IMG/VR virus record: IMGVR_UViG_3300025892_000012
Location: 29,493-93,492 of that record
Source of the DNA: a virus
Direction: 5' to 3' (one strand)
DNA: 64,000 nt
Numbering within the stretch: position 1 is the first letter of the stretch; every line of letters starts with the position of its first letter. The position numbers and the translations under genes are program-made. This document shows, in pieces, positions 23,747 through 64,000 of the stretch. Under the pieces are notes generated by a model, which worked only from the letters and a program-made list of their open reading frames with translations, had not been told where the DNA came from and did not search any database.

Positions 23747-24091
23747 ATGGCGAATACACTTTTATCTAAAACTTATGATGGCGGAAATAATTATGTTACT
23801 GCCACAACAGATGTTAACATTTATACTGTGCCTACAAGTACAACTTCCATTTTAATTGGGTTTACAATATCAAATTTAACAACCGGTATCATAGCTTTGA
23901 GTGTTAAAATTTTAGATTCAGATGCGGCACAAACTGTACACTTTTTGAAAAATGTAGTCATTGATAGTGGCTCTACTCTTGAAATAATGGGGGGCAATAA
24001 AATTATTCTAAATGCTAGTGATGCAATACGTATGCAGTCCGATACACCAAATTCCTTTGATGTTGTACTATCACTAGTGGAACAGACATGA
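23747..24091 (+). CDS. ~110-aa adaptor family protein (copy 2)
   Basis: YTVPTSTTSILIGFTISN...GSTLEIMGGNKIIL...LSLVEQT. Confidence 0.75.
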   Translation: MANTLLSKTYDGGNNYVTATTDVNIYTVPTSTTSILIGFTISNLTTGIIALSVKILDSDAAQTVHFLKNVVIDSGSTLEIMGGNKIILNASDAIRMQSDTPNSFDVVLSLVEQT

Positions 24092-24342
24092 GCAAAGCTT
24101 TTAATATAGCTACAAATCTTGGAGCATATAAAAGTGCTTTTGATTCAAGTGGTAATATAAATGTACCAATGTATTCAAACCATGACACAACTGAAGATAT
24201 AACTGTAGTTGCAAATACTAATTCTTTAATGCCAGGACCTATTACAGCAAACAATGTAGCTGTAAGCGGACATTTAATTGTAATAAATGAATTTCATGTA
24301 ACTGGTAATATTACAGTTACTGGTTCTGTATCATTAATATAA
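24088..24342 (+). CDS. Socket connector (MSKA-type N-terminus)
   Basis: MSKAFNIAT...NTNSLMPGPITANNVAVSGHLIV...VTGSVSLI; ATGA overlap. Confidence 0.7.
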   Translation: MSKAFNIATNLGAYKSAFDSSGNINVPMYSNHDTTEDITVVANTNSLMPGPITANNVAVSGHLIVINEFHVTGNITVTGSVSLI

Positions 24343-24362
24343 ATGAACAAAGAGGAGAATAA

Positions 24363-24959
24363 ATGCCTACGTTTACACTAGGAGGAAAAACACTAGCAAC
24401 ACAAACAGGAAGTGCAGAGCCACAAATAGCAGATGCTGTAACATTTCCTGGAAAATCTGGAGCAATATTACAAACAAAAACTTATATAGATCCCACATCA
24501 TGGACTCAGGTACTTGACACTGATTTTGAAACGCTTGTAAATGGGTCTGGAGTTAAATTTGCTGTATCTATTACTCCTACTCTAACAGGGTCTAAAAATA
24601 TAGTAACAGTAACTTTTGGAACTTTTTATGCACACAATGCTCAAAATTATGCATTAGGAGTTAGATTGTGTAGAAATGGCACTCCAGTAAGATTAAGCAC
24701 AGCCACCGACAGTACACCTCTAGTAACTTTTAGTGCTAGTAGTTTATATGCAAACTATATGCCAGCATGTACTGCAGTTGTTCTTGATGAAACCTTGAAT
24801 ACTAAAGATGTATTAGTTGAGTACACTTTACAAATGCAAAGACATGCAATAAGTACATACACAATGGGTATGAATAAAACTGGAACCACAAGAACTGATA
24901 ATTCTGCCTATGGACAGCGTACATCCAGTCAAATTATGGCACAGGAGGTTGTGGTATGA
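24363..24959 (+). CDS. Receptor-binding tip, TFP(A)G family
   Basis: Plug MPTFTLGGKTLATQTG; VTFPG..GAILQ; ends QIMAQEVVV; GAGGAG RBS. Confidence 0.7.
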   Translation: MPTFTLGGKTLATQTGSAEPQIADAVTFPGKSGAILQTKTYIDPTSWTQVLDTDFETLVNGSGVKFAVSITPTLTGSKNIVTVTFGTFYAHNAQNYALGVRLCRNGTPVRLSTATDSTPLVTFSASSLYANYMPACTAVVLDETLNTKDVLVEYTLQMQRHAISTYTMGMNKTGTTRTDNSAYGQRTSSQIMAQEVVV

Positions 24960-25330
24960 TTACAATAACACAAGCAGTACAAGCACTAGGAGGAAAAAGT
25001 TTTAGTGTTGAAGAAGAAAATCCAAATAAAGTTTTTTTTAATAGAGGTAATCCATTAAACATAACAACTGCTCAAATAAAAGAAAAATTTGACGAATTAG
25101 TTGCAGAATTTAATCAGACAGAACCCATTAGATTACTAAGAGAACAAAGGGATAAATTACTTACAGAAACCGATTGGGTAACTGCAAAAGCAATAGAAAC
25201 AGAAGAACCAATACCTGCTGAATGGAAAACCTATAGACAAGCACTCAGAGATTTACCAGCTACTGCAGAACCACAACTAGATGAGTTTGGTAATTTAATT
25301 AATGTAACTTGGCCGGAGAAACCAGAGTGA
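24956..25330 (+). CDS. Phage tail assembly chaperone (LR..R..LL.ETDW...YRQALRDLP family)
   Basis: Family motif, ends WPEKPE; ATGA overlap. Confidence 0.85.
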   Translation: MITITQAVQALGGKSFSVEEENPNKVFFNRGNPLNITTAQIKEKFDELVAEFNQTEPIRLLREQRDKLLTETDWVTAKAIETEEPIPAEWKTYRQALRDLPATAEPQLDEFGNLINVTWPEKPE

Positions 25331-25599
25331 GTGGAACACTTAAATTAAACGATACACTATTTGCTACAGAAAATAGTGGAGATATAAGTGTAACTGCGCA
25401 TTTTACAGAAACTAATGTTGTACAAAACTCAAATGTTATAACACAGAGTTTGACGATAGCAAACAATAAAAATGCAACAATTTCAGGACCTGTATCTGTA
25501 AGTGGTTTAACAATCAATGGAAGTTTAAATGTAATGGGTAATTTAACAATTCCTACAACACAAAATTTAACAATTACAGGAAGATTAAGGATATTATAA
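25327..25599 (+). CDS. Plug-plus-socket 'extender' connector
   Basis: GTGA-coupled start gives MSGTLKLNDTLFATENSG (plug); ends NKNATISGPVSVSGLTINGSLNV...ITGRLRIL (socket). Confidence 0.7.
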   Translation: MSGTLKLNDTLFATENSGDISVTAHFTETNVVQNSNVITQSLTIANNKNATISGPVSVSGLTINGSLNVMGNLTIPTTQNLTITGRLRIL

Positions 25600-25600
25600 T

Positions 25601-26194
25601 ATGGCAGATTTAATTTTAGGAAACACTACTGTAATGACAGAAAGTGGAGGTAATGTTACACTTGCTGATTTTTTTGAAGCTAAAATATTACAAATAGATT
25701 ATGGAATGCACAGTAGCACTTATTACGACAGTGGCCAGGGTACTGCATTTCCTGGAACCACTTTACCTGGAGAACTTGGTGATGGAAGTGTAAATTTAAC
25801 TCCTACCAGTTCCAGTAATTTTATAGAGATTTCGTATACAATGCATTGTGGACAACATGCCACATGGAATTTATTTTTCTTTAGAACATATTACAGTGTA
25901 GACGGAGGTAGTACTTATGCATATGTAACAGATACTGGAGGTGGAGCAATAGGTTATCATTCAGGTTGGAATGGCTCACCTTTTATAGCATCTGCCTGTG
26001 TGATTAAACCGGTGACTTTTTTTACTAGCACAAATCAAAATATAAAATTTCGAATGAATTCTTGTAAAGAAAGTAATTCAGCAACAGGATTAGCACTCAA
26101 CGTAAACACAAGTACTAATGATAGCTCAAAAACTACAAATTTTTCAGGTGCTTGTTCATCATTGATAGTAAAAGAATTAAAAGGACCATTATGA
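25601..26194 (+). CDS. Receptor-binding tip (TFPAG-related family)
   Basis: Plug MADLILGNTTVMTESGG; KILQ...LTPTSSSNFIEI...SSLIVKEL. Confidence 0.7.
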   Translation: MADLILGNTTVMTESGGNVTLADFFEAKILQIDYGMHSSTYYDSGQGTAFPGTTLPGELGDGSVNLTPTSSSNFIEISYTMHCGQHATWNLFFFRTYYSVDGGSTYAYVTDTGGGAIGYHSGWNGSPFIASACVIKPVTFFTSTNQNIKFRMNSCKESNSATGLALNVNTSTNDSSKTTNFSGACSSLIVKELKGPL

Positions 26195-26553
26195 CAGACA
26201 TTGTTAACGCTATAGAATCTTTAGTTGATAAAGCTAAATTCAGTATTGAAGATGGAGATTATGACAAAATTGTTTGGAAAGATGAAAGAACTATTCCCAC
26301 AAAAGCACAAATAGAAACAAAGATTACTGAATTAGAAGCTGAAGAACCTGTGCGAATTTTACGATTACACAGAGATAGATTATTACAAGAAACAGATTGG
26401 GTATCTGCTAGAAGTGTTGATTCAGGTACACCAGTGTCTCAAGAATGGGTTGCATATAGACAAGCACTTAGAGATTTGCCAGTTACAGCAGAACCACAAC
26501 TAGATGAAAATGGTAATTTGACAAATGTCACTTGGCCAGTAAAACCAGTATAA
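26191..26553 (+). CDS. Tail assembly chaperone
   Basis: LRLHRDRLLQETDW...YRQALRDLP...WPVKP; start moved to ATG 26191 (ATGA overlap). Confidence 0.85.
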   Translation: MTDIVNAIESLVDKAKFSIEDGDYDKIVWKDERTIPTKAQIETKITELEAEEPVRILRLHRDRLLQETDWVSARSVDSGTPVSQEWVAYRQALRDLPVTAEPQLDENGNLTNVTWPVKPV

Positions 26554-26563
26554 AAGGATTAAA

Positions 26564-27324: not shown

Positions 27325-27333
27325 AAAGAAGAT

Positions 27334-27912
27334 ATGAGTGGAGTTATAAAACTAGGTTCAACAACATTTGGCACAGAGAACAATGGCAAGATAGATTTGA
27401 CCAATGTTGGTGAAATCGCTTACAATAATCATCCTGCATTTTTTGCATGGTTAAGTACTCTTCAAAATAACTTTACTGATCAAACATATGTCAAAGTTGC
27501 GTATAATTCCATAGATATAGACACTCACAATTCTTTTGATACTACTTCTTTTGTTGGTAGATATACTATACCTGATGGTTGTAGTGGAACTTATCAAATA
27601 AGTGCTAGAGTTACTGGATGGGCAGTAACAGATACAAACCTAAGAGATGACCACTTATATTTAAGAAAAAATGGTTCTAATTATGAAGGTGTGGCGAATA
27701 GATGGGCAGGAAATGATATAGCACACCATTCTAATGTGCTAACAACAATTATAGATTTAAATGCTGGAGATTATTTAGAGATTTATTGTTTTATGAATTC
27801 AGTAAATAGTGCTGATAATAGAGTTTTATCAAAAATGGGTGACTACAACTTAAATAGTGGTTGGGAGGAAATATCAAGATTAACAACTTTTAGTGGATAT
27901 CGTATAAGGTAA
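27334..27912 (+). CDS. Receptor-binding tip, C1q/TNF-like domain
   Basis: Plug; HPAFFA...FDTT..GRYTIP..GTYQISA...LNAGDYLEIY...FSGYRI. Confidence 0.7.
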   Translation: MSGVIKLGSTTFGTENNGKIDLTNVGEIAYNNHPAFFAWLSTLQNNFTDQTYVKVAYNSIDIDTHNSFDTTSFVGRYTIPDGCSGTYQISARVTGWAVTDTNLRDDHLYLRKNGSNYEGVANRWAGNDIAHHSNVLTTIIDLNAGDYLEIYCFMNSVNSADNRVLSKMGDYNLNSGWEEISRLTTFSGYRIR

Positions 27913-27919
27913 TTAACTT

Positions 27920-28489
27920 ATGGCATCAGAAATACAATTAGGCGGTAAAACAATATTCACGCAAGATGGTAACAACATGCCAGAAATGCATACGAATGTT
28001 GTAATACCCGAAGCAACAAAAACAGCATTAGGATTAAATGCTATACCAGCAGGAACAACAGCAGAAAGACCAGGTACTCCTGCAGTTGGTATGATTCGTT
28101 ACAACACAGATTTTAAATGTATTGAATACTATGATACTAATAGTCTATCTGGTTCAACTTGGCACAGTGTAGGGCCTTTTGTTACTGTAAAATTTAATGG
28201 CTTTAATGGTTCTGTCATGAATTGGTGGGGTAATTATTCAAGTATAACGAGAAATGCAACAGGACATTATACATTAACTTTTGCAACAGCAGTTGGTGAT
28301 TATATGTGGTATATTGATACCGATACAAATAATTCAAGGAGTGGTAATCACGTAATGGGACTAAGTGGTTTTGGTAGTTATTATTTTGTTTATAATTCAA
28401 CTTATTTTACATTTACAATAGGTGATATTATTACACCAGCACGGTCAGATGCCGATATAGTTTGGGTTTCTCTATGGAGTATATCATGA
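27920..28489 (+). CDS. Receptor-binding tip
   Basis: Plug MASEIQLGGKTIFTQDG; PAGTTAERP..GMIRYNT spacer; VKFNG..SSITRNATGHYTLTF domain. Confidence 0.7.
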   Translation: MASEIQLGGKTIFTQDGNNMPEMHTNVVIPEATKTALGLNAIPAGTTAERPGTPAVGMIRYNTDFKCIEYYDTNSLSGSTWHSVGPFVTVKFNGFNGSVMNWWGNYSSITRNATGHYTLTFATAVGDYMWYIDTDTNNSRSGNHVMGLSGFGSYYFVYNSTYFTFTIGDIITPARSDADIVWVSLWSIS

Positions 28490-28905
28490 ATAATTTAATA
28501 CTTTACACAAATGCAGAAGGTTCAGTCTCTAGCATTTGTATCAATGGTGCAGAAGACATCACAAAAGTCAGAAAGTATATATTAGACCATAGTTTAAATG
28601 ATGCTATTATTATAGATGAAGCCGCACTACCAGAAAAAAAATTAGAGTATTGCAAAATAGTAAATGGTGAGTTAATATCAGATGAAGAATATAAAACAAA
28701 TAAAGCCATGCAATTGTTGCGAGAAGAAAGAGAAAAGTTATTGATTCAATCTGATTGGCGTGACCTTCCTTCTTATCCAGGTACAGACCAAGAAGCATGG
28801 CGAACATATAGACAGGATCTAAGAGACATGACTGAATTAGAATCTCCTAAAATAGATCAATATGGTAATCTAATTGAAGTAGTCTGGCCAACACCACCGG
28901 AGTAA
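28486..28905 (+). CDS. Tail assembly chaperone
   Basis: LREEREKLLIQSDW...YRQDLRDM...WPTPPE; ATG 28486 overlaps upstream stop. Confidence 0.8.
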   Translation: MNNLILYTNAEGSVSSICINGAEDITKVRKYILDHSLNDAIIIDEAALPEKKLEYCKIVNGELISDEEYKTNKAMQLLREEREKLLIQSDWRDLPSYPGTDQEAWRTYRQDLRDMTELESPKIDQYGNLIEVVWPTPPE

Positions 28906-28906
28906 A

Positions 28907-29137
28907 ATGGGAAACATTTCAATCATCAAAGGTTTTGATTCAGAAGGAATCAGACCAAGCAACGAAATAGTTGTAGACAAGAATGTAGTAGCTGAAGAAG
29001 GTTATTCACAATTGTTAATTGGTCCTGTTACTGTTCCCAATGTTACTGTAAATGGTAATCTAAACGTGATGACTGAAATAAATATTACTGGAGACTTAAC
29101 AATTGGTGAGAACGGTCAACTCAACATCATCGGATAA
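28907..29137 (+). CDS. Socket connector
   Basis: YSQLLIGPVTVPNVTVNGNLNV...GENGQLNIIG; close paralog of 32799. Confidence 0.7.
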   Translation: MGNISIIKGFDSEGIRPSNEIVVDKNVVAEEGYSQLLIGPVTVPNVTVNGNLNVMTEINITGDLTIGENGQLNIIG

Positions 29138-29142: not shown

Positions 29143-29667
29143 ATGGGTAATCTTGTATTAAATGGGCAGACAGTATTAGAGCAAGTCGGAACTGCTAAAC
29201 CTACAGTTGGTTCTGGTTGGCCTTCTGGTACAATTTGTGGATTTGAAAGATACATTACACCTATTACAAGTCATCAATCTAGTACTACCACATATCAAAC
29301 TATTACAGGAACACAAATAGATTATACACCAGTGACAGGTAGTACTTATGTATATTATAGTACAAGTTTTTTAATGACTGGAGAAGATAATAGTGCTTTA
29401 GGACATTTTAAACTATTATTAGATTACAATACAGTAAATGGAGCGGAGTTTACAATAAGGCAGGGAGTTTATTGGGCAGGAAATCTTATATATTTAGAAT
29501 GGATATTTGATTCATGGAGTGGTCCTAAAAATATATTATGTGAGTGTAGGGAGTATAATGCCTCATACACATTTAGATTACATCAAAATGTTAATTGGGA
29601 TGGAGCAAGTGATTCGGCAACTGGACCATATAAATCTCCAGTAACTAAAATATATTCTATAATGTGA
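29143..29667 (+). CDS. Receptor-binding tip
   Basis: Plug MGNLVLNGQTVLEQVG; WPSGTI in place of FPAGH. Confidence 0.7.
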   Translation: MGNLVLNGQTVLEQVGTAKPTVGSGWPSGTICGFERYITPITSHQSSTTTYQTITGTQIDYTPVTGSTYVYYSTSFLMTGEDNSALGHFKLLLDYNTVNGAEFTIRQGVYWAGNLIYLEWIFDSWSGPKNILCECREYNASYTFRLHQNVNWDGASDSATGPYKSPVTKIYSIM

Positions 29668-29674: not shown

Positions 29675-30274
29675 ATGGCAACACTTAAACTCAACAACAC
29701 AACAGTTTTTACAGAATCAAATGGTGCTGCGAGTATTCCAAGTGCGGTCAAGTTTCCTGCTGGACATGTTGTACAAGTTGTAGAATTACATGATGATAAT
29801 TATGTAACAATAAATGCTGCATCCATTAAATGTTATGATGTTCAAATTACAACCAAACAATCAAATTCAAAAATTTATGTGATAGCAAATTTAGGTCACA
29901 GTAACTATAATCATGATGTTGATAGAGCATTGGCAATGGGATATAAAGTTGGTGGGGTATCCACAAATTCTTCTGATTATATTGCTTTACAAAGTTCAAA
30001 ATATACTAGGCAAATAGAAGGAAATTTAGGTAGTTTTTGGACACAAGATACAGGAGACCCAGGTGGAGGAAGTTGGAGTGGAACTTACGGAATAAGTTCG
30101 GTGATGTTTACTAAACTACATGCTCCTAATGTTCCTAAAGATACACTATTATCATATTCGTTGTGGGGTTCTTCAGATGGTACATTCTACATTGGCACAT
30201 CCAATTCTACAGGAGGTGGAACACCTAATGGTTATGACAATAGTATTACTTTAATGGAGATTTCTAATGGTTAA
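29675..30274 (+). CDS. Receptor-binding tip, FPAGH family
   Basis: MATLKLNNTTVFTESNG...KFPAGHVVQ...SITLMEIS. Confidence 0.75.
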   Translation: MATLKLNNTTVFTESNGAASIPSAVKFPAGHVVQVVELHDDNYVTINAASIKCYDVQITTKQSNSKIYVIANLGHSNYNHDVDRALAMGYKVGGVSTNSSDYIALQSSKYTRQIEGNLGSFWTQDTGDPGGGSWSGTYGISSVMFTKLHAPNVPKDTLLSYSLWGSSDGTFYIGTSNSTGGGTPNGYDNSITLMEISNG

Positions 30275-30641
30275 GCCAAAACAAATAACCATCAATAATG
30301 CTATGGTAGAATATTATGGCAATTATAGTTGGGGAATGACTGGACCGAACTATACAGATATTATTTGGAAATCTAATCCTGATGAGAAACCAAGTTTAGA
30401 AGATTTAGAAGAAAAGGTAATACTGTTACAACAACAAGAACCATTAAGATTTTTGAGAGAAAAAAGAAACATTTTGTTAAAAGAAACAGATTGGAGAGCA
30501 ACAGTTGACTATCCTGGAACAGACCAAGAGGCATGGTTGACTTATAGACAGGCACTGAGGGATTTACCTGCAACAGCAGAACCAGAATTGGATGAAAACG
30601 GAATGCTTACAAACGTAACTTGGCCAGAGGAACCAGTATAA
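30267..30641 (+). CDS. Tail assembly chaperone
   Basis: LREKRNILLKETDW...YRQALRDLP...WPEEP. Confidence 0.85.
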   Translation: MVKPKQITINNAMVEYYGNYSWGMTGPNYTDIIWKSNPDEKPSLEDLEEKVILLQQQEPLRFLREKRNILLKETDWRATVDYPGTDQEAWLTYRQALRDLPATAEPELDENGMLTNVTWPEEPV

Positions 30642-31225
30642 TGGCAATACTAAAGTTAAACAGTCATGAAGTGATTACACAAAGTGGAGACAATCGTCCA
30701 GAGTTTGGTGCAAGTGTGCCTGCTGGTTGTATGTTACAACTTAAATCAACTACTAAAACCGACCATTGGGGTGGTTCTGGAGTTTCAAATGGAAATTCAG
30801 GTGTTACTCCATATGCTGTAACTGGATTATCTGTTACAATTACTCCAAAGTTTAATACAAGTAAAATATGGTTATTTGCTGATATTTTTATGGGATTAAA
30901 TAACTTTGAAGGATACAATTATTATTGGTCAATTTATAGAAGTATTAATGGAGGAACTAGTTCAGCAATTGGAGTAGGTACAGATAGTAGTGCAACATTT
31001 TTTGTTATGGGTGGTCATAATATGTATCCTTCTGGAAGTAGTATTCCTTTTGCGGGAGGTAATTCTAAAAATTATTTAGACAGTCCATCTACAATAGATA
31101 GTATAACTTATCAAATAAATGTAGGTGCTGCAGATTCAAATGCTATTTTATATGTTAATAGAAGAGCTAGTGGTGGCAATCCTTGTGGGGTATCAACAAT
31201 CACAGCAATGGAGATAGCAGCATAA
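30641..31225 (+). CDS. Receptor-binding tip, PAG family
   Basis: TAATG-coupled start MAILKLNSHEVITQSG; VPAGCMLQ; ITPKFNTSKI; STITAMEIAA. Confidence 0.75.
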   Translation: MAILKLNSHEVITQSGDNRPEFGASVPAGCMLQLKSTTKTDHWGGSGVSNGNSGVTPYAVTGLSVTITPKFNTSKIWLFADIFMGLNNFEGYNYYWSIYRSINGGTSSAIGVGTDSSATFFVMGGHNMYPSGSSIPFAGGNSKNYLDSPSTIDSITYQINVGAADSNAILYVNRRASGGNPCGVSTITAMEIAA

Positions 31226-31776
31226 TGGCAACTCTACAACTCGGAAACAAAACACTGTTTACACAATCTGGAAGTGCTGATCCGGAAATAACATCAAATG
31301 TAAATTTGACAAATGCAGATATGTCTAATGCAGATATGTCTAATGCAAATATTAAAACATCATTTAGTTCATTAGATACTTCTGCATCTCAAGGACCAAC
31401 AACAGATTTAACAAATACAACATTACCTATATTTGCTTGTAGAGCATGGGTACATTTTAACGGCATGTCATATGTTACTGTAGAAAGTGAATCTCATTGT
31501 GATATATATGCTTCTGGTAACGTAAGTAAAGTAGTAAGGGTTGGCGTTGGTTTGTATAAAATTTATTTTTTAACCCCAATGCCAGATACTAATTATTGTG
31601 TAACTGGTTCGCATGTTGCTTCAACCAATAGTTATGGTAATGTTGGTGGAATCGGAGGTTACAATGCTACGGCAGGGGGTATTGAAACAACTTATGTAGG
31701 AATAACATACCAATACCACTATAGTAGTTATGGTTTCGTTGACCAAGACCATTTACATATTGCTATTTTCAGATAA
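31225..31776 (+). CDS. Receptor-binding tip, 'RAWV.FNG...SGNVS' family
   Basis: TAATG-coupled start MATLQLGNKTLFTQSG; CRAWVHFNG..ASGNVSKV..G.Y...F..PMPDTNY. Confidence 0.75.
   Translation: MATLQLGNKTLFTQSGSADPEITSNVNLTNADMSNADMSNANIKTSFSSLDTSASQGPTTDLTNTTLPIFACRAWVHFNGMSYVTVESESHCDIYASGNVSKVVRVGVGLYKIYFLTPMPDTNYCVTGSHVASTNSYGNVGGIGGYNATAGGIETTYVGITYQYHYSSYGFVDQDHLHIAIFR
31312..31347 (+). repeat. 15-bp tandem repeat AATGCAGATATGTCT x2.4 (NADMS)
   Basis: Exact in-frame tandem duplication. Confidence 0.9.
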
Positions 31777-31786: not shown

Positions 31787-32368
31787 ATGGCAACACTTAC
31801 GATTGGTGGAAAAACAGTAGTAACGCAGACAGGCACGGATGAGCCTATAATGACAAGTAATGTTGTGATGGATAATGTTAATGTGAACAATGCATTGGCA
31901 AGTGCTACGTTTCCTGCTGGACATATGTTAAGACATTTTTATGATGAATATAATTTTAATGGGTCTCCTGCTACAATCACAACAACCGCATCAAATTGGA
32001 GCGGTCTACAAATTGATATAATTAATCCTAATACAAGTAATTATTTATTTTTACAAATGTTTATTCCTGACGTATATTGTAGCGGTTCAAGTAATGGACT
32101 TGGAGGTGGTTTTGTTTATAGTACAAATTCTTTTAGTTCAGAATCAATTTTAGGTTCATCTGCTTGGTATTTTAATCAACATTCATGGACAAGTTCTGGT
32201 TCAAATTTAAATAATACTAGTTTGACTGTTAGAGTATTACATCCAACAAGTAGTAACTATTCAATAAGACCATATTTTCAGGCTTATAATGCAAGTTTAA
32301 GTATAGGACAAGGCAATAGTGGCAATAAGTCTATCGCAACATTATTTGCTATGGAGATACAAGGATGA
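31787..32368 (+). CDS. Receptor-binding tip, TFPAGH family
   Basis: MATLTIGGKTVVTQTG...ATFPAGH...LFAMEIQG. Confidence 0.75.
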   Translation: MATLTIGGKTVVTQTGTDEPIMTSNVVMDNVNVNNALASATFPAGHMLRHFYDEYNFNGSPATITTTASNWSGLQIDIINPNTSNYLFLQMFIPDVYCSGSSNGLGGGFVYSTNSFSSESILGSSAWYFNQHSWTSSGSNLNNTSLTVRVLHPTSSNYSIRPYFQAYNASLSIGQGNSGNKSIATLFAMEIQG

Positions 32369-32799
32369 AAACATATTTTGAAGTGGTTATAGATTTAGTA
32401 GGTATTGAAAATATTTGTAACGGACCATCCAATGGACCTGTATCTCAAATTAAATTTATAAATGGATTTGTAAACATACCCACTGAAGAAGAAATCCAAG
32501 CAAAGATAGCAGAACTTCAAGCAGCCGAACCACTACGTCTATTAAGAATAGAACGAAACCAAATTCTTCAACAATCTGATTGGGAAGTTCAACGCAATAC
32601 AGAACGCAACATTACAGATTCAAATCTAATAGACTATCGTAATGCACTCCGAGACCTTCCACAAGAAATAGCAAATGGAAACATTCCAGCACCTACACTG
32701 GATGAGAATGGAATGCTGGTGTTTGAACATTGGCCGAATCGCTATGAGATAAATATAGAAGATGAACCAACAGCAAACAATTCAGCTAATACAGTTTAA
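32365..32799 (+). CDS. Tail assembly chaperone with C-terminal extension
   Basis: AEPLRLLRIERNQILQQSDW...YRNALRDLP...FEHWP plus ~20 extra residues. Confidence 0.85.
   Translation: MKTYFEVVIDLVGIENICNGPSNGPVSQIKFINGFVNIPTEEEIQAKIAELQAAEPLRLLRIERNQILQQSDWEVQRNTERNITDSNLIDYRNALRDLPQEIANGNIPAPTLDENGMLVFEHWPNRYEINIEDEPTANNSANTV
32749..32755 (+). promoter_or_regulatory. Possible late promoter ATAAATA
   Basis: GATAAATATAG, identical to the element at 50482; ~45 bp before socket gene 32799. Confidence 0.4.
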
Positions 32800-33023
32800 T
32801 GCCGTCAAAAAGTAACGCCAAACAAAAATCAATTATAGTTGGTATTAACACAAAAACTTTTACCAATGATGTTGAAGTTGCTGAAAACTATTCTGCAATT
32901 CTCAGTGGTCCTGTAAGTGTACCAAACATCACTGTCAATGGTACTTTAAATGTGATCAACAATCTAAGTGTAGATGGTGATATTGTGATTGGTCCAAATG
33001 GTAATTTAAATCTAACAGGATGA
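32799..33023 (+). CDS. Socket connector
   Basis: YSAILSGPVSVPNITVNGTLNV...GPNGNLNLTG. Confidence 0.7.
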   Translation: MPSKSNAKQKSIIVGINTKTFTNDVEVAENYSAILSGPVSVPNITVNGTLNVINNLSVDGDIVIGPNGNLNLTG

Positions 33024-46732: not shown

Positions 46733-46742
46733 AAAGGATTTG

Positions 46743-52587: not shown

Positions 52588-52590
52588 TAG

Positions 52591-55016: not shown

Positions 55017-56492
55017 ATGCCGTACATTGGTTCAGCAGTAAAAAGTATAAACACAAGGTCAGCAGTTGACCATCAACAATTTCTTGGTTCATCTGCAGAT
55101 ACTGTTACAAATCCTGGATACTATACATTCTATGTGAACTATTCACCGGGTAATATATCTGTTTTTGTAGCAGGTAATAATATAAGTCATACAGACTATA
55201 CTGCTAATAATGGTACTGATGTAAGAATTTCTACAAGCACATTAACAATTAATCCAGCGGATAATGTAGAAATCATTGGTTATAATATACCAACAAGTCA
55301 AGTGTTAGAAAGAAGTGATGTGAATATTACTGGTGGAAGTATACGAAATGTTGAAATATCTGATTCTAATTTTCTTGGAACAAACAATGTACAATTTTCT
55401 ACGGGTCTGCCAGTTGTAGATAGTACTGGAAATAATGTTATAAGTGAAAGTGGGGGAGTAGTTACTCTTGCAAATAATGTTGTTCCTAGCAGTAGTTATA
55501 TGTTTCGGAACAAGATTATCAATGGTAATTTTGACATTTGGCAACGTGGGACAAGTCAGACAAGTAGTGGGTATGGAAGTGCAGATAGGTGGAATAACAC
55601 TCATTCTGGGCCATCATCTAAAACAGCATCACAAGGAGTATTTGCTTTAGGTCAAACTGATGTTCCAGACAATCCTAAATATTATTTAAGGACTGTATTT
55701 ACAAGTTCAGGTGGGAATGGTGATATTTGTCTAACCCTACAAAATATAGAAGATGTTAAAACATTAGCAGGGCAAACAGCAAAATTGAGCTTTTGGGCCA
55801 GAACAACAGGTTCCAATAAAAACATTGCAACTGAAATTATTCAATATTTCGGAACTGGTGGTTCTCCATCACCTTCCGTTCTTTCAATTGGGACAACAAC
55901 TCACACACTAACAAGTTCGTGGCAGAAATTTACAACTACTGTTTCTATTCCGTCTATTAGTGGAAAGACCATTGGCACAGATGCTAATGATTACTTAGGT
56001 TTAAATTTTTGGTTTGAAGCAGGTGCTAACATAAATTCTTCTAGAACTAATTCATTAGGCAACCAATCTGGAACCTTTGACATTGCCCAAGTCCAGCTTG
56101 AAGAAGGCACAGTTGCGACACCGTTCGAGCATCGGCCTTATGGGTTAGAGTTAAGTTTGTGTCAACGCTACGCACATTTTATAAGACCAGCATCACAATA
56201 TGCTGCAATTGGTGTTGGAAGAGCGTGGAGTTCTACACAGGGAAATGCTCATGTGTATCTTCCAGTCAGTATGCGAGGTGCTATAGCAATAGAATATTCA
56301 AATCTTAGCCATTTTGATTTACCCCCTGCAGGAGAAGGTGTTAATGGACTACACAATGACGGGTCAACTAAACAAACTGTGAAAGTTGGATGGGTAAGAA
56401 ATTCAAATGTCACAAGTGGTACTTACTATCAATTAGAGTTTGAAGATTCAAATTGGCAAAATGCTTATCTAGGTTTTACTTCGGAGTTGTAA
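55017..56492 (+). CDS. Fused fibre: YIG N-domain plus FRNKIING module plus unique tip
   Basis: N-domain paralogous to 26839; middle closely similar to 48047; ends FTSEL. Confidence 0.8.
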   Translation: MPYIGSAVKSINTRSAVDHQQFLGSSADTVTNPGYYTFYVNYSPGNISVFVAGNNISHTDYTANNGTDVRISTSTLTINPADNVEIIGYNIPTSQVLERSDVNITGGSIRNVEISDSNFLGTNNVQFSTGLPVVDSTGNNVISESGGVVTLANNVVPSSSYMFRNKIINGNFDIWQRGTSQTSSGYGSADRWNNTHSGPSSKTASQGVFALGQTDVPDNPKYYLRTVFTSSGGNGDICLTLQNIEDVKTLAGQTAKLSFWARTTGSNKNIATEIIQYFGTGGSPSPSVLSIGTTTHTLTSSWQKFTTTVSIPSISGKTIGTDANDYLGLNFWFEAGANINSSRTNSLGNQSGTFDIAQVQLEEGTVATPFEHRPYGLELSLCQRYAHFIRPASQYAAIGVGRAWSSTQGNAHVYLPVSMRGAIAIEYSNLSHFDLPPAGEGVNGLHNDGSTKQTVKVGWVRNSNVTSGTYYQLEFEDSNWQNAYLGFTSEL

Positions 56493-56672: not shown

Positions 56673-56675
56673 TTA

Positions 56676-57327: not shown

Positions 57328-60300
57328 ATGGCAAGCATACTCAAAATTGATGTATTAGAACAAAGATACGCCAATTCAGGATTATATCTTTCTGGTAGGA
57401 TTCACGGTCCTCAGGGAGATATAATTAATAATGGTAGAGTTGTTCTTCCTGGAAACTTTGAAGCAAATACATTCAATGTTCTTGAAAGTCTAGATGCTAA
57501 TACAATAAATGCCAATACAATATTTCTCGGTGGAGTCAATGGTAAGCTTGAATTTGACGCAAACACTTCCACATTAAAAATCAATAATGCTTCCCTTGCA
57601 TTACAATCTGATGTCTCTACATTAATTGAAAATAGTTACACTAAGTTTACAGCAAATAGTTCAATTACAGCAGGAGATTTAGTAAGTTTATTAGATAATG
57701 GTAAAATTGAAAAGACAGCAGAAGCGAGTGTTAGAACTAACAGTGTTGGTGCTACTACAACATTTGATAGTAATGCTAGTGACAACATATATGTTCAATA
57801 TGATAAAACTTTAAACAAAGTACTTGTTTCATATGCGGTTGGAAGTTCCTCTGCTTGCTACGGTGTACTTGGAACGGTTAATGCTGACGGAAGTATAACA
57901 TTTGGAACACCACTTCAGATTACTTCTCAATATAATTTGATGACTGGTGCGATAGACCCCGTTCAAAATAGAGCAGTTTTTACATTTTTAGGTGATGTAT
58001 ATATTGCTGAAATTTCTGGTAACAATCTTATAAATTTACAATCTCCAATAACATTTGATAGTAGTACAGAAAATTATAATGCGACAATATATGACCCAAA
58101 TTCTGGTAAAATAATAATAGCATATTCAGATAGTGCGAGTCCTACAGGTAGAGCAGGTAATGTACTGGCGGTAACTGTTAATGGAAATTCAATTACATTT
58201 GGACAAACAACTGTTTTTGAGGCTTCCAATACAGAAACGATTTCTTTAAGTATAGATAATGATACAAATAAAATAATTATCGGATATTCATTAATAGGAT
58301 CATCCGCTAGATGTGTTATCGCAACTGTATCTGGAACAACAATAACAACAAGCTCACCTGCCGTTGCCTCTCCAGGTACAGCAGATTTTGTAAAATTTAC
58401 TTATGCTTCAAATGGCATAGTTGTTGCTGCTTTCCGTGATAATACTAATAGTAACTATGGTGCATATTCTATAGGACAGATATCTGGCAACTCAATAACA
58501 TTTGGAAGTTCTGTTGTTTTCAATTCTGCAACTTCCGTACCAATAGGTTTGAGTTATGATAATGTAAATGAGAGAATTTCAATTTCATACAATGATTTTG
58601 GAAACAGTAATTATGGTACAGTAAAATCCGGTATAATTGAAAACGGAGCTATAACATTTGAAGCTACAGATATATTCAATAGCAGTGCTACATATGAAGT
58701 TTTTAGTGTAGTTGATACCACATACAATAGAATTTTAATAGGATTTAAAAATGGTGCTACTGGTCCTGGTAGAATAAATGTATATTCAACGTTTGGAACC
58801 GAATATAAAGATAACGTAGATAATTATATTGGAATAGCAAAGGATTCAATTGCTGCTACTCAGGAAGGTTCTGTATTCATAATTGGAGACATTGCTGATA
58901 ATCAAACAAGTCTCACAGAAAATCAAATTTATTATGTTGATAAAACAGGAAGCCTAACCACATCCAAAACAGAATATAGTATTGTAGGTAGAGCGGTATC
59001 AAATACGTCAATACAATTACTTGACAATAAACCAACATTACTTACTGATTTAAATATTATAGATGGAACTAATTCACAAGTATTGACAACATATGGTAAT
59101 GGTTCTTTTTATTTTGCCGCAGCTAGTGACCCTATAGCAGTATCCAAAACTAATACTACAAATGCCATTCTATCAACAGTTACAAATGTAAATGATTTTA
59201 GATTTGATAGTGATAGTGGTTTTGATGTTGTTGATTTAGGAGCAGGTGCAGTAAAGATTCAAATGAATTCAACTTTCAAAACATTGAAAGTTTCTGGTCA
59301 GAGTGATTTAGTAGCAACTGGTTTAGATACATTAGAGTTAATAGGTTCTGGAATAACAATTACAACAGATGCTGTAGCTAATCCTAAAACACTCACATTT
59401 ACTGGTGCCAGCACTCTTACTGATTTGGGAATAACTGATGGTAGTGCAAATCAAGTATTAATTACAGACGGTTTAGGAAACTATTCTTTTGCTAATGCTG
59501 CTTCGGGAGGCGCAAGCACACTAACAGATTTAGGCATAGCTGATGGTGAATCAGACCAAGTGCTTACAACAGATGGAAATGGTAGTTTCTTCTTTGGACA
59601 TTCATTATCTATATTAAATCAAGATTTGATTGATGGTGGAGAAATTACAGAATTGCGTGATTGTCGTACAGTTATTGATTTAGGTAGTGTAGATACAAGA
59701 TTGGGATATGCCGTACCTGAAGGTAGTAAAACTATTCTTTTAGCAAATGATTCTACAATTGTTTCTTCTACAAATGATATAATTATATCAGAAACAAATG
59801 GATTTGCAAAATTAGAAAATGTCACTATAGATTTAAGTGGAAAAACGGATGCAATTATAGTTCCAAAAGGTACAACAGCACAAAGACCTAGTTCACCTAT
59901 TGCTGGAATGATTCGTTATAACACAGAATTAGACCAGTATGAATTATATGATGAAACAACAACAGCTTGGGGAAAACTTGGAGATCAACCACCTACAATT
60001 TCCAGTATTTCTCCTGCCACAACAGAAACTGTTTCAGGTACAACACAATTTACTGTGGTCGGCACTAATTTTGAATCCACAGGAATGACAACTCAATTTG
60101 TGAGTACGGTAGATAGTACCGCTGTAAATAGAACTGCATTTATTTTTGATAATAGTGGTCAAATTAGAATCACCTTTGATAACACAGATTTTGATGCCGC
60201 AAAAGAACCTTACAATTTAATTGTTACAAAATCCAGTGGTTTAAGTGTTACTAAACTAAATGCATTATATGTAGATGAAGCTCCTGTTTGGTCACTTACA

Positions 60301-61269
60301 AGCACAAATATTGCTACTATTTTACCACAAGCAATTACAAATGTCAATATAGATTTACCTACAGCAACAGACCCTGAAGGAGATATAGTAACTTATAGTG
60401 GGAGTAATTTACCTAGCGGTTTAAGTATTGATGCAAACACTGGTGATTTGAGTGGTAGTGTTCCTGCAGCAAATACAGAAATAGAATATACAGTTACTAT
60501 AAATGCACAAAGCACTGGTAGTGACCCGGGTGCAACACAAAAAACCACAACAAGACAACCCACAATCATTGTGAAACCTGTGATTGAAAATTCCTTGATG
60601 TTTGATGGGAGCAGCTATTTAAGTAAAAGCACAAGTGATAACAGCACCAATTCAAGTATTAAGACTTGGTCTTTTTGGGTTAAAAGATCAGTTCTAGGAA
60701 CAAACTTTTATATGACCGGAGGATTCAAATCGGGGAACTCAAATACTTTTGATATCTACTTTCATACTGATGATACTTTTAGTGTCCAGTGGGGTGGCAG
60801 TTCTGCATTACTTAACAGATCCAGTGCGGTATTTAGAGATACATCTGCGTGGTATCATATATTGGTGCATAAAAACAGCACTTCACAAAGTTTTTACATT
60901 AATGGCAGTTTGGTTAGTTTAGCAACAACTAACACAACTTCGTCATCAGTGGCATTTGCTGAAAACGGGATGTCTGTCTCTGGTAATTATGGCAGTTTCA
61001 TTGGTGGAGGTGGATTTGGAGGAAGCAATAACATAATTGGCTACCTCGCCAACATCCATTTCATAGACGGACAAGCATTGACCCCAACATCATTCGGTGA
61101 AAGTATAAATGGTATCTGGTTGCCGAAAGTTTACAATCCAACAGGTAATGCACTAACAGATTACGGTACAAATGGTTTCCACCTTACATTTGCACCAAGC
61201 ACAATTAGCGGCACAACTGTACAAGATATTTCTGGTAGAGGAAATGATTGGACAGCAAATGGTTTTTAA
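57328..61269 (+). CDS. Large fibre: plug, propeller-like domain, spacers, Ig-like domains, LamG/ConA-like C-terminal domain
   Basis: MASILKID plug; region homologous to the 34079 C-half; PKGTTAQRP; ATDPEGD..LPSGLSID Ig; SLMFDGSSYL..TWSFWVKRS..FRDTSAWYHI..GYLANIHFIDGQAL. Confidence 0.8.
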   Translation: MASILKIDVLEQRYANSGLYLSGRIHGPQGDIINNGRVVLPGNFEANTFNVLESLDANTINANTIFLGGVNGKLEFDANTSTLKINNASLALQSDVSTLIENSYTKFTANSSITAGDLVSLLDNGKIEKTAEASVRTNSVGATTTFDSNASDNIYVQYDKTLNKVLVSYAVGSSSACYGVLGTVNADGSITFGTPLQITSQYNLMTGAIDPVQNRAVFTFLGDVYIAEISGNNLINLQSPITFDSSTENYNATIYDPNSGKIIIAYSDSASPTGRAGNVLAVTVNGNSITFGQTTVFEASNTETISLSIDNDTNKIIIGYSLIGSSARCVIATVSGTTITTSSPAVASPGTADFVKFTYASNGIVVAAFRDNTNSNYGAYSIGQISGNSITFGSSVVFNSATSVPIGLSYDNVNERISISYNDFGNSNYGTVKSGIIENGAITFEATDIFNSSATYEVFSVVDTTYNRILIGFKNGATGPGRINVYSTFGTEYKDNVDNYIGIAKDSIAATQEGSVFIIGDIADNQTSLTENQIYYVDKTGSLTTSKTEYSIVGRAVSNTSIQLLDNKPTLLTDLNIIDGTNSQVLTTYGNGSFYFAAASDPIAVSKTNTTNAILSTVTNVNDFRFDSDSGFDVVDLGAGAVKIQMNSTFKTLKVSGQSDLVATGLDTLELIGSGITITTDAVANPKTLTFTGASTLTDLGITDGSANQVLITDGLGNYSFANAASGGASTLTDLGIADGESDQVLTTDGNGSFFFGHSLSILNQDLIDGGEITELRDCRTVIDLGSVDTRLGYAVPEGSKTILLANDSTIVSSTNDIIISETNGFAKLENVTIDLSGKTDAIIVPKGTTAQRPSSPIAGMIRYNTELDQYELYDETTTAWGKLGDQPPTISSISPATTETVSGTTQFTVVGTNFESTGMTTQFVSTVDSTAVNRTAFIFDNSGQIRITFDNTDFDAAKEPYNLIVTKSSGLSVTKLNALYVDEAPVWSLTSTNIATILPQAITNVNIDLPTATDPEGDIVTYSGSNLPSGLSIDANTGDLSGSVPAANTEIEYTVTINAQSTGSDPGATQKTTTRQPTIIVKPVIENSLMFDGSSYLSKSTSDNSTNSSIKTWSFWVKRSVLGTNFYMTGGFKSGNSNTFDIYFHTDDTFSVQWGGSSALLNRSSAVFRDTSAWYHILVHKNSTSQSFYINGSLVSLATTNTTSSSVAFAENGMSVSGNYGSFIGGGGFGGSNNIIGYLANIHFIDGQALTPTSFGESINGIWLPKVYNPTGNALTDYGTNGFHLTFAPSTISGTTVQDISGRGNDWTANGF

Positions 61270-61283
61270 TAGGATAAATTAAT

Positions 61284-63137: not shown

Positions 63138-63163
63138 TTATAATTATCAATGGAGAAAACAAT

Positions 63164-63375
63164 ATGGCAGAACAATTGAAATTGAAAACACAATTTTTGA
63201 AAACACAAACTTTTTTACAGCAGTAAATAAAGTTATAAATCATGATGAAGTTTCTATTGCCGATGCATATAGAATAAATAAGATCATTAAAAAAACTTAA
63301 AGAATTCAAGATGGAATTTTGGTCGCTGATATCAACAAACTAGAATTAATATTTGATTTTTCTAACATAGAATAA
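63164..63375 (+). pseudogene. Frameshifted remnant of a small fibre-associated gene
   Basis: GGAG RBS plus ATG 63164 is one base out of frame with TIEIENTIFEN...AYRINKIIKK; stop at 63298-63300 after an A-run; protein-like QDGILVADINKLELIFDF resumes. Confidence 0.5.
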
Positions 63376-63380
63376 AATAA

Positions 63381-63920
63381 ATGCCAGAAGTTATAAAATT
63401 TTCCAAAGGTACTGTAGCAGAACACAATAACTTTACGGGAGAGAATGGTGAAATCACATTGATTTGTGATGATAGCCCGAATCGTAAAGTTACTGGCATC
63501 ATACGTTTACATGACGGTCAGACTGTTGGTGGTGTTCCTTTTGGTGGTAGTCAATTGCTAAATGATTTACATGATGTAAATACTGCTAGTGCTACACTTG
63601 GTACTGTATTAACTGCTGGTGCTAATGACACGTTTTATTTTAATTCAGTAGTAACTAATCTAGCTGGATTGACTGATGTAATTTCTGCTAACACTGCAGC
63701 AAATGGTACAATACTTACAGCAGATGGTAATGGTGGTTTTAAGTTTGATACAATAGCAAAAGGTGGTGGAAACAATCAAGTGTTTTTTGAAAATGATACA
63801 ACAATCACAGATGATTATACAATCTCAGCAGGTAAGAATGCAATGACTGCTGGACCAATAACAATCGCAAACAATGCAACTGTAGTTATACCAGTTGGTT
63901 CAACTTGGACAATAGTGTAA
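63381..63920 (+). CDS. Socket connector with Mtd-N-type N-terminus
   Basis: KGTVAEHNNFTGENGEI..IRLHDGQTVGG (paralog of 54307); ends NAMTAGPITIANNATVVIPVGSTWTIV. Confidence 0.75.
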   Translation: MPEVIKFSKGTVAEHNNFTGENGEITLICDDSPNRKVTGIIRLHDGQTVGGVPFGGSQLLNDLHDVNTASATLGTVLTAGANDTFYFNSVVTNLAGLTDVISANTAANGTILTADGNGGFKFDTIAKGGGNNQVFFENDTTITDDYTISAGKNAMTAGPITIANNATVVIPVGSTWTIV

Positions 63921-63921
63921 T

Positions 63922-64000
63922 ATGGCAGAAAGTATATTAAAAACGGACGAAATTCGTCTATTAAATAATCAAGTGTTGATGAGTGATGGTGCGTTGACTG
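63922..64000 (+). CDS. Start of next tip gene (3'-truncated)
   Basis: MAESILKTDEIRLLNNQVLMSDGALT, closely matching the 51644 plug. Confidence 0.75.
   Translation, partial: MAESILKTDEIRLLNNQVLMSDGALT

What the first reader, a model, noticed from the sequence alone, without database searches (positions are those of the whole stretch)
24088..64000. Candidate new system: plug-and-socket assembly of a combinatorial phage fibre array
Seen: ten genes (24088, 25327, 26839, 28907, 32799, 37176, 45912, 50528, 56676, 63381) end in one beta-strand motif, (N/S)xxxxG(P/D)(I/V/M)...(V/I/L).G.(L/W).(I/V), the 'socket'. In 10/10 cases the next gene (24363, 25601, 27334, 29143, 33025, 37457, 46139, 51644, 57328, 63922) starts with a short 'plug', M.x.(L/I).(L/I/V).G.T..(T/S)(Q/E).G or M.S.(L/I)K.D.(I/L). 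About 12 more plug genes follow in runs (27920, 29675, 30641, 31225, 31787, 38124, 39093, 40051, 40811, 47101, 52591, 25327), carrying unrelated tip folds. Inference: socket and plug complete a shared beta structure non-covalently, so about twice as many tips as sockets compete for attachment. That would give virions mixed receptor-binding sets without DNA rearrangement. Branched tailspike networks are known (e.g. CBA120, phiKp24); I do not know a description of this terminal-motif connector code.
Basis: partly seen in the sequence, partly recalled or inferred. Interest (0 to 1): 0.92.

Follow-up and report, generated by a model that had tools for sequence, protein, structure and literature searches.

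The report
Modular fibre-end dock with swappable tips
An uncultured marine T4-like phage carries ten copies of a small, unannotated fibre-end domain, each followed at once by exchangeable host-binding tip genes that start with a short conserved peptide; the same pair occurs in thousands of aquatic phages, including the model cyanophage P-SSP7, so it is probably a common joint for fastening swappable tips, though the contact itself is not shown.

Summary
Ten + strand genes end in one homologous C-terminal domain of about 50 residues (the "socket"). All ten are followed within -1 to +20 nt by a gene whose first 17-35 residues are a conserved peptide (the "plug"), and about 13 more plug genes follow in runs.

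A profile built only from foreign contigs finds the window's sockets. The domain occurs in 9,148 protein clusters and sits at the very C-terminus in about 146 of the best 150. P-SSP7 gp17, S-SBP1, S-B05 and S-T4 carry it, each followed directly by tip genes.

In close relatives the socket and the first 17-22 codons of the next gene are conserved, while the tip body is replaced. One-piece fibres (55017, 34079, P0228) lack the socket. Twelve tips share one TNF-like head, so the tips are not all unrelated. Thirteen PF16778 chaperones accompany them.

A non-covalent joint is the best reading (about 0.6). The "shared beta structure", a specific "code" and competition between tips remain untested. 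The principle is already known from KP32/K11, TP901-1 and T4 gp36/37. This is a new, very widespread variant in an extreme array. The scan has reported the same module on other genomes.

The parts
24088..24342 (+). 84-aa mini-adaptor ending in socket type A
25327..25599 (+). 90-aa mini-adaptor with plug A at the N-end and socket A at the C-end (GTG start; TTG at 25309 also possible)
   Evidence: leave-one-out 14.9 bits
26839..27324 (+). 161-aa protein: T7-fibre-like N-domain (47% identical to 55017 residues 1-133) plus socket A
28907..29137 (+). 76-aa mini-adaptor with socket A, under purifying selection (22-23 synonymous against 10-11 non-synonymous codon changes relative to relatives)
32799..33023 (+). 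74-aa mini-adaptor with socket A
37176..37454 (+). 92-aa mini-adaptor with a divergent socket A (GD in place of GP)
   Evidence: at noise level
45912..46139 (+). 75-aa mini-adaptor with socket A; its stop overlaps the next start
50528..51643 (+). 371-aa fibre; socket B at residues 320-371
   Evidence: 87 bits
56676..57320 (+). 214-aa fibre base (47% identical to 34079 residues 1-165) with a short socket B
63381..63920 (+). 179-aa protein with socket B at residues 128-179
   Evidence: 81 bits
24363..24959 (+). tip: plug A plus TNF-like head
25601..26194 (+). tip: plug A plus TNF-like head (weak match, E 1.7e-5)
27334..27912 (+). tip: plug A, head of unknown family
27920..28489 (+). tip: plug A; its N-part resembles an internal stretch of 57328
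29143..29667 (+). tip: plug A plus TNF-like head (weak). In relatives only the first 17-22 residues are kept
29675..30274 (+). tip: plug A plus TNF-like head
30641..31225 (+). tip: plug A plus TNF-like head
31225..31776 (+). tip: plug A, other head
31787..32368 (+). tip: plug A plus TNF-like head
33025..33747 (+). tip: marginal plug A (5 bits) plus glycine-rich domain PF21722
37457..38110 (+). tip: plug A, head of unknown family
38124..38726 (+). tip: plug A plus TNF-like head
39093..39695 (+). tip: plug A plus TNF-like head; 37% identical to the head of the one-piece fibre P0228
40051..40806 (+). tip: plug A, other head
40811..41830 (+). tip: plug A plus the head class shared with 48020, 49222 and 55017
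46139..46732 (+). tip: plug A plus TNF-like head
47101..47664 (+). tip: plug-B-like N-end plus TNF-like head
51644..52243 (+). tip: plug B (35 nearly invariant N-terminal residues in 70 homologues) plus TNF-like jelly-roll head (AF2 and Foldseek)
52591..53184 (+). tip: plug B plus TNF-like head
57328..61269 (+). 1313-aa distal fibre starting with plug B; homologous to 34079 residues 312-915
63922..64000 (+). start of a plug B gene, cut off by the contig end
24956..25330 (+). tail-fibre assembly chaperone, PF16778 (59.7 bits)
26152..26553 (+). PF16778-like chaperone
28462..28905 (+). PF16778-like chaperone
30267..30641 (+). PF16778-like chaperone
32365..32799 (+). PF16778-like chaperone
33744..34079 (+). 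PF16778-like chaperone
38723..39100 (+). PF16778-like chaperone
39692..40054 (+). PF16778-like chaperone
45445..45873 (+). PF16778-like chaperone
46713..47099 (+). PF16778-like chaperone
47664..48050 (+). PF16778-like chaperone
52240..52587 (+). chaperone, PF16778 (41.8 bits)
53181..53534 (+). PF16778-like chaperone
55017..56492 (+). one-piece (fused) fibre: N-domain of 26839 joined directly to the head class of 40811/48020; no socket
34079..36871 (+). one-piece fibre equivalent to 56676 plus the first part of 57328; no socket

Best explanation
The window is the tail-fibre region of an uncultured marine T4-like myovirus. Its fibres are built from separately encoded parts:
- A stalk or mini-adaptor ends in a C-terminal domain of about 50 residues, the socket.
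- Receptor-binding tips begin with a 17-35 residue anchor peptide, the plug. Most carry a trimeric TNF-like or C1q-like lectin head.
- PF16778 chaperones fold the tips.

The plug most likely docks non-covalently on the socket of the protein encoded just upstream. Tip bodies can then be exchanged by recombination behind the plug without touching the virion scaffold.

Several tips share one plug class, and mini-adaptors carry other N-terminal connectors. The virion is therefore probably decorated with many different tips.

Shown:
- The two motifs, their terminal positions and their adjacency.
- Their distribution in other phages.
- The conservation boundary between plug and tip body.
- The fused forms without a socket.
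- The fold of one tip head, and the chaperones.

Inferred:
- The physical contact, its geometry and its stoichiometry.
- Whether tips compete for one site.
For: Motifs and adjacency in the window:
- Socket homology was confirmed with a profile made from foreign sequences only.
- Plug A is separated from background in a leave-one-out test.
- 10 of 10 socket genes are followed by a plug gene, in varying frames.

The same pair elsewhere:
- In 51 IMG/VR loci the socket is followed directly by a stop, and in 50 of them a gene of 50 aa or more starts -1 to +12 nt later.
- The window's plug B profile hits 26 foreign ORFs. 25 hits lie at the N-terminus, and 12 are directly behind a socket. Most of the others start 900-1,300 nt further on, as second tips.
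- 9,148 clusters at 50% identity carry the socket. About 146 of the best 150 matches end within 4 residues of the C-terminus.
- P-SSP7 gp17, S-SBP1 gp40, a 101-aa S-B05 adaptor and an S-T4 fibre end in it, each followed at once by tip genes.

Plug conserved, tip body swapped:
- In relatives L085-L088 the socket and the first 17-22 codons of the next gene are conserved, and the rest of the tip is unrelated.
- 70 homologues of 51644 share 35 nearly invariant N-terminal residues and then diverge.

Fused against split forms:
- 55017 equals the N-domain of 26839 plus the head class of 40811.
- 34079 equals 56676 plus 57328.
- P0228 is a T7-type N-domain plus a TNF-like head.
- None of the three has a socket.

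Tip function:
- The head of 51644 models as a TNF-like jelly roll. The best Foldseek hits are trimeric lectins and cyanophage fibre binding domains.
- P-SSP7 genes 37, 38, 39 and 41 are homologues of these heads.
- Resistance-breaking mutations map to genes 37 and 38 (PMC5520035).
Against: - No interface has been modelled or measured.
- Socket B is about 54% identical between the window and P-SSP7. The plugs behind it fall into at least five unlike classes, and the P-SSP7 plugs do not match the window's plug profiles. That argues against a sequence-specific code.
- P0078 and P0079 carry tandem internal copies of the socket unit. The domain therefore probably folds on its own rather than needing a plug strand.
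- AF2 models plug B as a low-confidence helix, not a strand.
- The socket model is of only moderate confidence and has no informative fold match.
- Tips in runs have no socket of their own directly upstream.
Confidence: 0.6

Rival explanations
1. The socket is not a dock. It is a C-terminal folding or trimerisation nucleus, or a small terminal binding knob of its own fibre. The tips are independent fibres that attach elsewhere through their N-terminal peptide. Adjacency reflects only a conserved gene order and cassette exchange.
For: - The unit occurs in tandem, internally, in P0078 and P0079, so it looks like an autonomous domain.
- The socket is far more conserved than the peptides that follow it.
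- C-terminal folding nuclei are common in phage fibres (general knowledge: T4 fibritin foldon).
Against: - Mini-proteins of 74-92 aa that consist of little more than a short N-peptide and the socket are under purifying selection. They make little sense as fibres of their own.
- One-piece fibres drop the socket exactly where stalk and tip are covalently joined.
- Adjacency holds in 50 of 51 foreign loci and across podovirus and myovirus genomes, although the flanks vary.
Confidence: 0.22
2. Most tip genes are a silent or rarely used cassette library. The conserved plug-coding 5' ends and chaperone 3' ends serve mainly as recombination anchors for swapping tips, and only one or a few tips per socket are assembled at a time.
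For: - Tip bodies are replaced between close relatives exactly behind the plug.
- Chaperone C-ends are highly similar among the 13 copies.
- The P-SSP7 tip region is a metagenomic island (PMC5520035).
Against: - All genes are intact, tightly packed and co-oriented.
- Plug DNA is no more conserved than socket DNA, and conservation is at the protein level.
- In P-SSP7, host-range mutations hit two different paralogous tips, 37 and 38, so more than one is in use.
- This reading is compatible with the best explanation rather than opposed to it.
Confidence: 0.12
3. The motifs are chance or compositional similarities in beta-rich fibre proteins.
For: The motifs are short and of low complexity. Two sockets (28907, 37176) and one plug (33025) score at noise level with single profiles.
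Against: - A profile from foreign sequences recovers eight sockets as its top eight hits among all six-frame ORFs.
- 5,025 clusters match at E <= 1e-10, almost always at the C-terminus.
- Leave-one-out scores separate plugs from background.
Confidence: 0.01

Closest known systems
Anchor-branch dual receptor-binding proteins of Klebsiella podophages KP32 and K11: a T4gp10-like branching domain plus a conserved peptide of about 35 aa on RBP2 (PMC13579863)
   Same: - The second protein is encoded directly downstream.
- It starts with a short conserved peptide and is followed by a freely exchangeable receptor-binding domain.
- The dock sits on the upstream fibre, so domains can be swapped between phages.
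   Different: - Here the dock is a domain of about 50 aa at the extreme C-terminus, with no Pfam family and no detectable gp10 likeness. It is not an internal T4gp10-like branch.
- The tips are small lectin-like heads, not depolymerases.
- Up to five or six tips follow one dock.
- Mini-adaptors exist that are hardly more than a dock.
- Binding has not been tested.
Lactococcal phage TP901-1 / Tuc2009 baseplate BppU-BppL (my own knowledge, not checked here)
   Same: A small trimeric receptor-binding protein of about 170 aa is held through its N-terminus by the C-terminal domain of an upstream-encoded protein. Many copies sit on each virion.
   Different: - No sequence relationship was tested.
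- The host phages are siphoviruses of Gram-positive bacteria.
- There is one tip type per phage, not an array.
T4 long tail fibre joints (gp36 C-end to gp37 N-end) and T2/S16 gp38 adhesins on the gp37 tip (my own knowledge; mentioned in PMC4819975)
   Same: Fibre segments encoded by neighbouring genes are joined end to end non-covalently. The distal piece determines host range, and chaperones are encoded next to it.
   Different: - No homology was detected.
- T4 has one linear chain per fibre. There is no family of alternative tips sharing one connector.
Multi-tailspike phages CBA120, phi92 and phiKp24
   Same: Many receptor-binding proteins sit on one virion, held by dedicated N-terminal attachment domains.
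   Different: Those phages use large XD or gp10-like domains and large enzymatic spikes. This phage uses a 50-aa end domain, short peptides and small heads of about 190 aa, in larger numbers (at least 23 plug genes).
Chain-like fibres of podophages GP4, VP1 and A1002 (PMC13730344)
   Same: Many small fibre proteins of 140-170 aa dock on another protein by beta-sheet augmentation. Two paralogues share one dock.
   Different: There the units are dimers strung along a long 'rope' domain. Here the heads are probably trimeric TNF-like domains and the dock is a terminal domain. The similarity is in concept only.

Membership tests
KP32/K11-type anchor-branch RBP system | T4gp10-like branching domain on the first RBP | tested here: inconclusive
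   Pfam and PHROGs give no gp10-like hit on the socket region. The structural search with the socket model gave nothing informative. The socket was not folded on its own.
KP32/K11-type anchor-branch RBP system | Short conserved N-terminal peptide on the downstream RBP, followed by a variable receptor-binding domain | tested here: met
KP32/K11-type anchor-branch RBP system | Physical docking of the peptide on the branching domain | not testable with these tools
   Needs binding or structural experiments.
Phage_tail_APC (PF16778) tail-fibre assembly chaperones | Pfam match above the gathering score | tested here: met
   24956 scores 59.7 bits and 52240 scores 41.8 bits against a cut-off of 26.6. 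The other 11 copies were matched only by tblastn or BLASTP.
Phage_tail_APC (PF16778) tail-fibre assembly chaperones | Needed for folding of the neighbouring fibre and absent from the final complex | not testable with these tools
   PMC7289586 shows this for V22 gp27, an unrelated downstream-encoded chaperone with a C-terminal DUF4376 domain. Its kinship with PF16778 was not tested, so it is an analogy only.
TNF-like / C1q-like trimeric lectin heads | Jelly-roll fold like TNF-family trimers | tested here: met
   The AF2 model of 51644 has mean pLDDT 77.6. Foldseek finds PLTL 9ib7 (E 1.3e-5, TM by target 0.68-0.75), BC2L-C 2wq4, and the cyanophage A-1(L) and A4 fibre domains. 53524 matches Pfam C1q at E 1.2e-16.
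TNF-like / C1q-like trimeric lectin heads | Trimeric assembly and sugar binding | not tested
   Inferred from the fold only.
T7 gp17-type fibre N-terminal domain (PF03906) | N-terminal tail-attachment domain on socket-bearing fibres | tested here: inconclusive
   There is no Pfam hit on 50528 or 56676. Atlas neighbours of the socket include clusters in which 100% of members carry PF03906. P-SSP7 gp17 carries the socket.

The most novel reading that the evidence does not exclude
The socket is a near-universal, low-specificity docking domain shared by marine podoviruses and myoviruses. Any tip that begins with a suitable N-terminal strand can attach to it. On this reading, a phage encoding ten sockets and at least 23 tips assembles virions with mixed, partly random sets of receptor-binding heads. 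That would be phenotypic host-range bet-hedging without any DNA change. Tips would also act as a common currency exchanged between phage families.
Probability: 0.25. Interest if true: 0.85.

Novelty: new variant of a known kind. Interest (0 to 1): 0.6.

Why it matters
How marine phages, including the abundant cyanophages, recognise hosts is poorly understood, and the distal parts of their fibres have not been resolved by cryo-EM.

A 50-residue end domain is present in more than 9,000 protein clusters and has no Pfam family. It always sits in front of exchangeable tip genes. That gives a concrete, testable model for how these fibres are put together.

The model would explain why the region downstream of the fibre gene is hypervariable. 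It would also explain why P-SSP7 host-range mutations fall in genes 37 and 38. It can be tested in cultured systems such as P-SSP7, S-B05 and S-T4.

If the dock proves promiscuous, it would offer a natural plug-in site for tip swapping. It could also allow heterogeneous virions. The array in this window, with 10 docks, at least 23 tips and 13 chaperones in 40 kb, is among the largest receptor-binding repertoires I know of.

Tried and rejected
- **Complex prediction.** I folded 3 copies of the last 110 residues of 50528 with 3 copies of 51644, both with alignments. The tool gave no verdict: scores were 0.27 and 0.01 against a mark of 0.32, and the controls were not run. This counts neither for nor against binding.
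- **Structural search with the socket model**. There was no match above Z 2.6. The socket was not folded on its own, so this says nothing about whether the fold is new.
- **PDB sequence searches** with 50528 and 38124 found nothing relevant.
- **Search for longer proteins carrying plug B internally** found none. This is weak evidence only.
- **Locus search with the type A alignment** failed because no stretch was conserved enough. The single-protein search found only six close relatives.
- **T4 late-promoter consensus** occurs less often than chance, so it does not define units.
- **My first regular expressions** for socket and plug were too strict and missed most members. I replaced them with profiles.
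- **Read-through or frameshift fusion of socket and plug genes** is rejected, because frames differ in 8 of 10 pairs.
- **Near-identical phage record.** None was found in the phage collection.
Full report
**What the window is.** The window is the last 64 kb of a 93.5-kb IMG/VR virus contig, estimated about half complete. GC content is about 34%. The major capsid protein upstream is about 55% identical to those of T4-like cyanomyoviruses and of Methylophilales phage Melnitz. Baseplate and long-fibre PHROG families hit the genes before 22.5 kb. It is therefore a divergent marine T4-like myovirus of unknown host. From about 20.7 kb to the contig end almost every gene lies on the + strand, tightly packed, and belongs to a fibre array.

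**Checking the observation.**
- All ten "socket" genes exist and end in a related C-terminal motif.
- I built a profile from 32 foreign sequences only and ran it against all six-frame ORFs of the window. Its eight best hits are eight of the ten socket genes. 28907 and 37176 are at noise level with this profile, but BLASTP links them to the others.
- Two subtypes appear. Type A is a longer tail with a six-residue hydrophobic period (autocorrelation 0.27 at lag 6). It occurs on six mini-proteins of 74-92 aa and on 26839. Type B is a compact unit of about 50 residues on 50528, 56676 and 63381.
- All ten are followed, -1 to +20 nt after the stop, by a gene with a conserved N-terminus. Frames differ in eight of ten pairs, so these are separate polypeptides.
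- In a leave-one-out test, 16 plug A N-termini score 10.5-35.8 bits against at most 5.4 for other genes. 20744 is also plug-like at 9.2 bits, and 33025 is marginal at 5.0 bits.
- Counting plug B genes (51644, 52591, 57328, 47101 and the cut 63922) and 53524, there are at least 23 plug genes for ten sockets.

**Distribution.**
- The type B socket is the C-end of the P-SSP7 tail fibre gp17 (gene 36), of S-SBP1 gp40, of a 101-aa adaptor in cyanomyovirus S-B05 and of a 544-aa fibre in S-T4. In each case a tip gene starts within about 25 nt.
- In 51 IMG/VR loci the socket is followed directly by a stop codon. In 50 of them the next gene starts -1 to +12 nt later.
- The window's plug B profile finds 26 foreign ORFs. 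25 hits are at the N-terminus. 12 lie directly behind a socket, and most of the rest are a second tip further on. This repeats the order socket, tip, chaperone, tip seen at 50528-53534.
- Against 1.84 billion cluster representatives the socket profile finds 9,148 clusters (5,025 at E <= 1e-10). In about 146 of the best 150 the match ends within four residues of the C-terminus, and many of these proteins are only 60-135 aa long.
- No Pfam family covers the domain. Atlas neighbours are all viral and unnamed.

**Anatomy of the tips.**
- AF2 models residues 36-199 of 51644 as a beta sandwich. Foldseek places it with TNF-like trimeric lectins (PLTL, BC2L-C N-domain) and with the binding domains of the cyanophage A-1(L) and A4 fibres.
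- A profile of that head finds 12 of the window's tips, and also P-SSP7 genes 37, 38, 39 and 41.
- Other tips carry a C1q domain (53524), a glycine-rich domain (33025), the head class of 40811/48020/49222/55017, or unknown heads.
- Thirteen PF16778-type chaperones follow tips or runs of tips.

**Where conservation stops.** In four related contigs the 28907 adaptor is 86% identical. It shows 22-23 synonymous against 10-11 non-synonymous codon changes, so it is a real gene under purifying selection. The first 17-22 residues of the next gene are kept, and the rest of that gene is unrelated. Likewise, 70 homologues of 51644 share 35 nearly invariant N-terminal residues, starting at Met1, and then diverge. 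This is the classic signature of a structural anchor in front of a swappable receptor-binding domain.

**Fused against split forms.**
- 55017 has the N-domain of 26839 (47% identity over 133 residues) joined directly to the head class of 40811 and 48020.
- 34079 equals 56676 plus the first part of 57328.
- The metagenomic protein P0228 is a T7-type N-domain and shaft joined to a TNF-like head 37% identical to 39093.

None of these one-piece fibres contains a socket. Wherever stalk and tip are separate genes, the stalk ends in a socket and the tip starts with a plug. That is what one expects if the pair stands in for a covalent link.

**Most likely mechanism.** Stalks and mini-adaptors present the socket at their free C-end. 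Tip trimers, folded with the help of the neighbouring chaperone, attach through their N-terminal peptide. Recombination just behind the plug exchanges tip heads.

Mini-adaptors carry different N-terminal connectors. 25327 itself starts with plug A, and 24088 and 45912 start like 42060 and 49222. They probably convert one attachment type into another, giving a branched or multi-level arrangement.

Functional support comes from P-SSP7. Resistance-breaking mutations map to genes 37 and 38, directly downstream of the fibre gene. The authors proposed unrecognised host-recognition proteins of the fibre, without structural evidence (PMC5520035). Cryo-EM of P-SSP7 and P-SCSP1u resolved only the N-terminal part of the fibre, so the joint has not been seen.

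**What is not supported.**
- The contact itself is inferred.
- The idea that the two parts complete one beta structure is weakened by proteins with tandem internal socket units (P0078, P0079). It is also weakened by AF2 modelling plug B as a low-confidence helix.
- A specific "code" is unlikely. Nearly identical sockets are followed by at least five unlike plug classes that share little more than an alternating hydrophobic start. The P-SSP7 plugs do not match the window's plug profiles.
- Competition of several tips for one site, giving mixed virions, is plausible. P-SSP7 has four tips for one socket, and two of them matter for host range. It remains untested. One socket trimer holding three tip trimers would fit equally well.

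**Comparison with what is known.** The principle of a docking domain on one fibre protein plus a short conserved N-terminal peptide on the downstream, swappable receptor-binding protein is established for KP32/K11 (PMC13579863). From my own knowledge it also applies to TP901-1 BppU/BppL, G7C, K1-5 and the T4 gp36/gp37 joint. Beta-augmentation docking of many small fibre units is described for A1002 and GP4.

What differs here is the dock and the scale. The dock is a tiny terminal domain with no Pfam family and no detectable gp10 likeness. It occurs on both podoviruses and myoviruses. Mini-adaptors exist that are little more than a dock. And this phage has an unusually large array. In the papers I could search I found no description of this domain or joint.

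The scan has already reported the same kind of module on other genomes (e1-5632202, e1-5858777, e1-5333790). I did not re-test those loci.

**Verdict.** This is a new and very widespread variant of a known kind of modular receptor-binding system, seen here in an extreme form. Confidence in a non-covalent socket-plug joint is about 0.6. Confidence in combinatorial mixed virions is about 0.25.

Noticed in passing
window 20744-21022, 22832-23743, 34079-36871 with 22483-22827, 23747-24091, 36880-37179: A second possible connector type. Three fibre proteins end in a similar short hydrophobic C-terminal motif finishing in Gly. Two of them (22832, 34079) are each followed directly by a paralogous 99-114 aa protein (28-37% identical to one another, PHROG families of unknown function) and then by a mini-adaptor. 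The third paralogue, 22483, follows 21052, the gene next to 20744.
   Followed up: partly
window 40811-41830, 48020-49015, 49222-50268, 55017-56492 with 41827-42063, 49019-49225, 50265-50483, 56493-56672: A second tip-and-partner class. Four heads share one family and end in the same three residues. Each is followed by a 59-78 aa acidic protein, three of which have a conserved Trp-containing motif (41827 is a distant paralogue). These may be a different small chaperone. The same head class follows sockets in S-SBP1, S-B05 and S-T4.
   Followed up: partly
P0078 (1520 aa) and P0079 (329 aa): These proteins carry 5-10 tandem internal copies of the socket unit. The unit can therefore act as a repeated bead-like domain as well as a terminal one.
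   Followed up: partly
window 516-5678 and 5741-12709: Two giant ORFs of 1720 and 2322 aa have no informative PHROG match. They are presumably giant fibre or decoration proteins.
   Followed up: no
window 54109-54264: A 51-aa ORF with a strongly hydrophobic C-terminal half lies inside the fibre array. It could be a small membrane protein or a spurious ORF.
   Followed up: no
window 44183-44797 and 44805-45437: Two paralogous 204 and 210 aa proteins (46% identical) were seen. 44183 matches the Phage Tail Collar domain PF07484, and 44805 was not scanned. Their N-termini resemble those of 42060 and 49222, and a PF16778-like chaperone follows at 45445.
   Followed up: partly
window 27920-28489, 40051-40806, 57328-61269 (residues about 800-885): A shared stretch containing a conserved Arg-Pro and Arg-Tyr-Asn motif lies directly behind the plug in two tips. 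The same stretch occurs internally in the long fibre 57328, so plug-like segments also exist inside one-piece shafts.
   Followed up: partly
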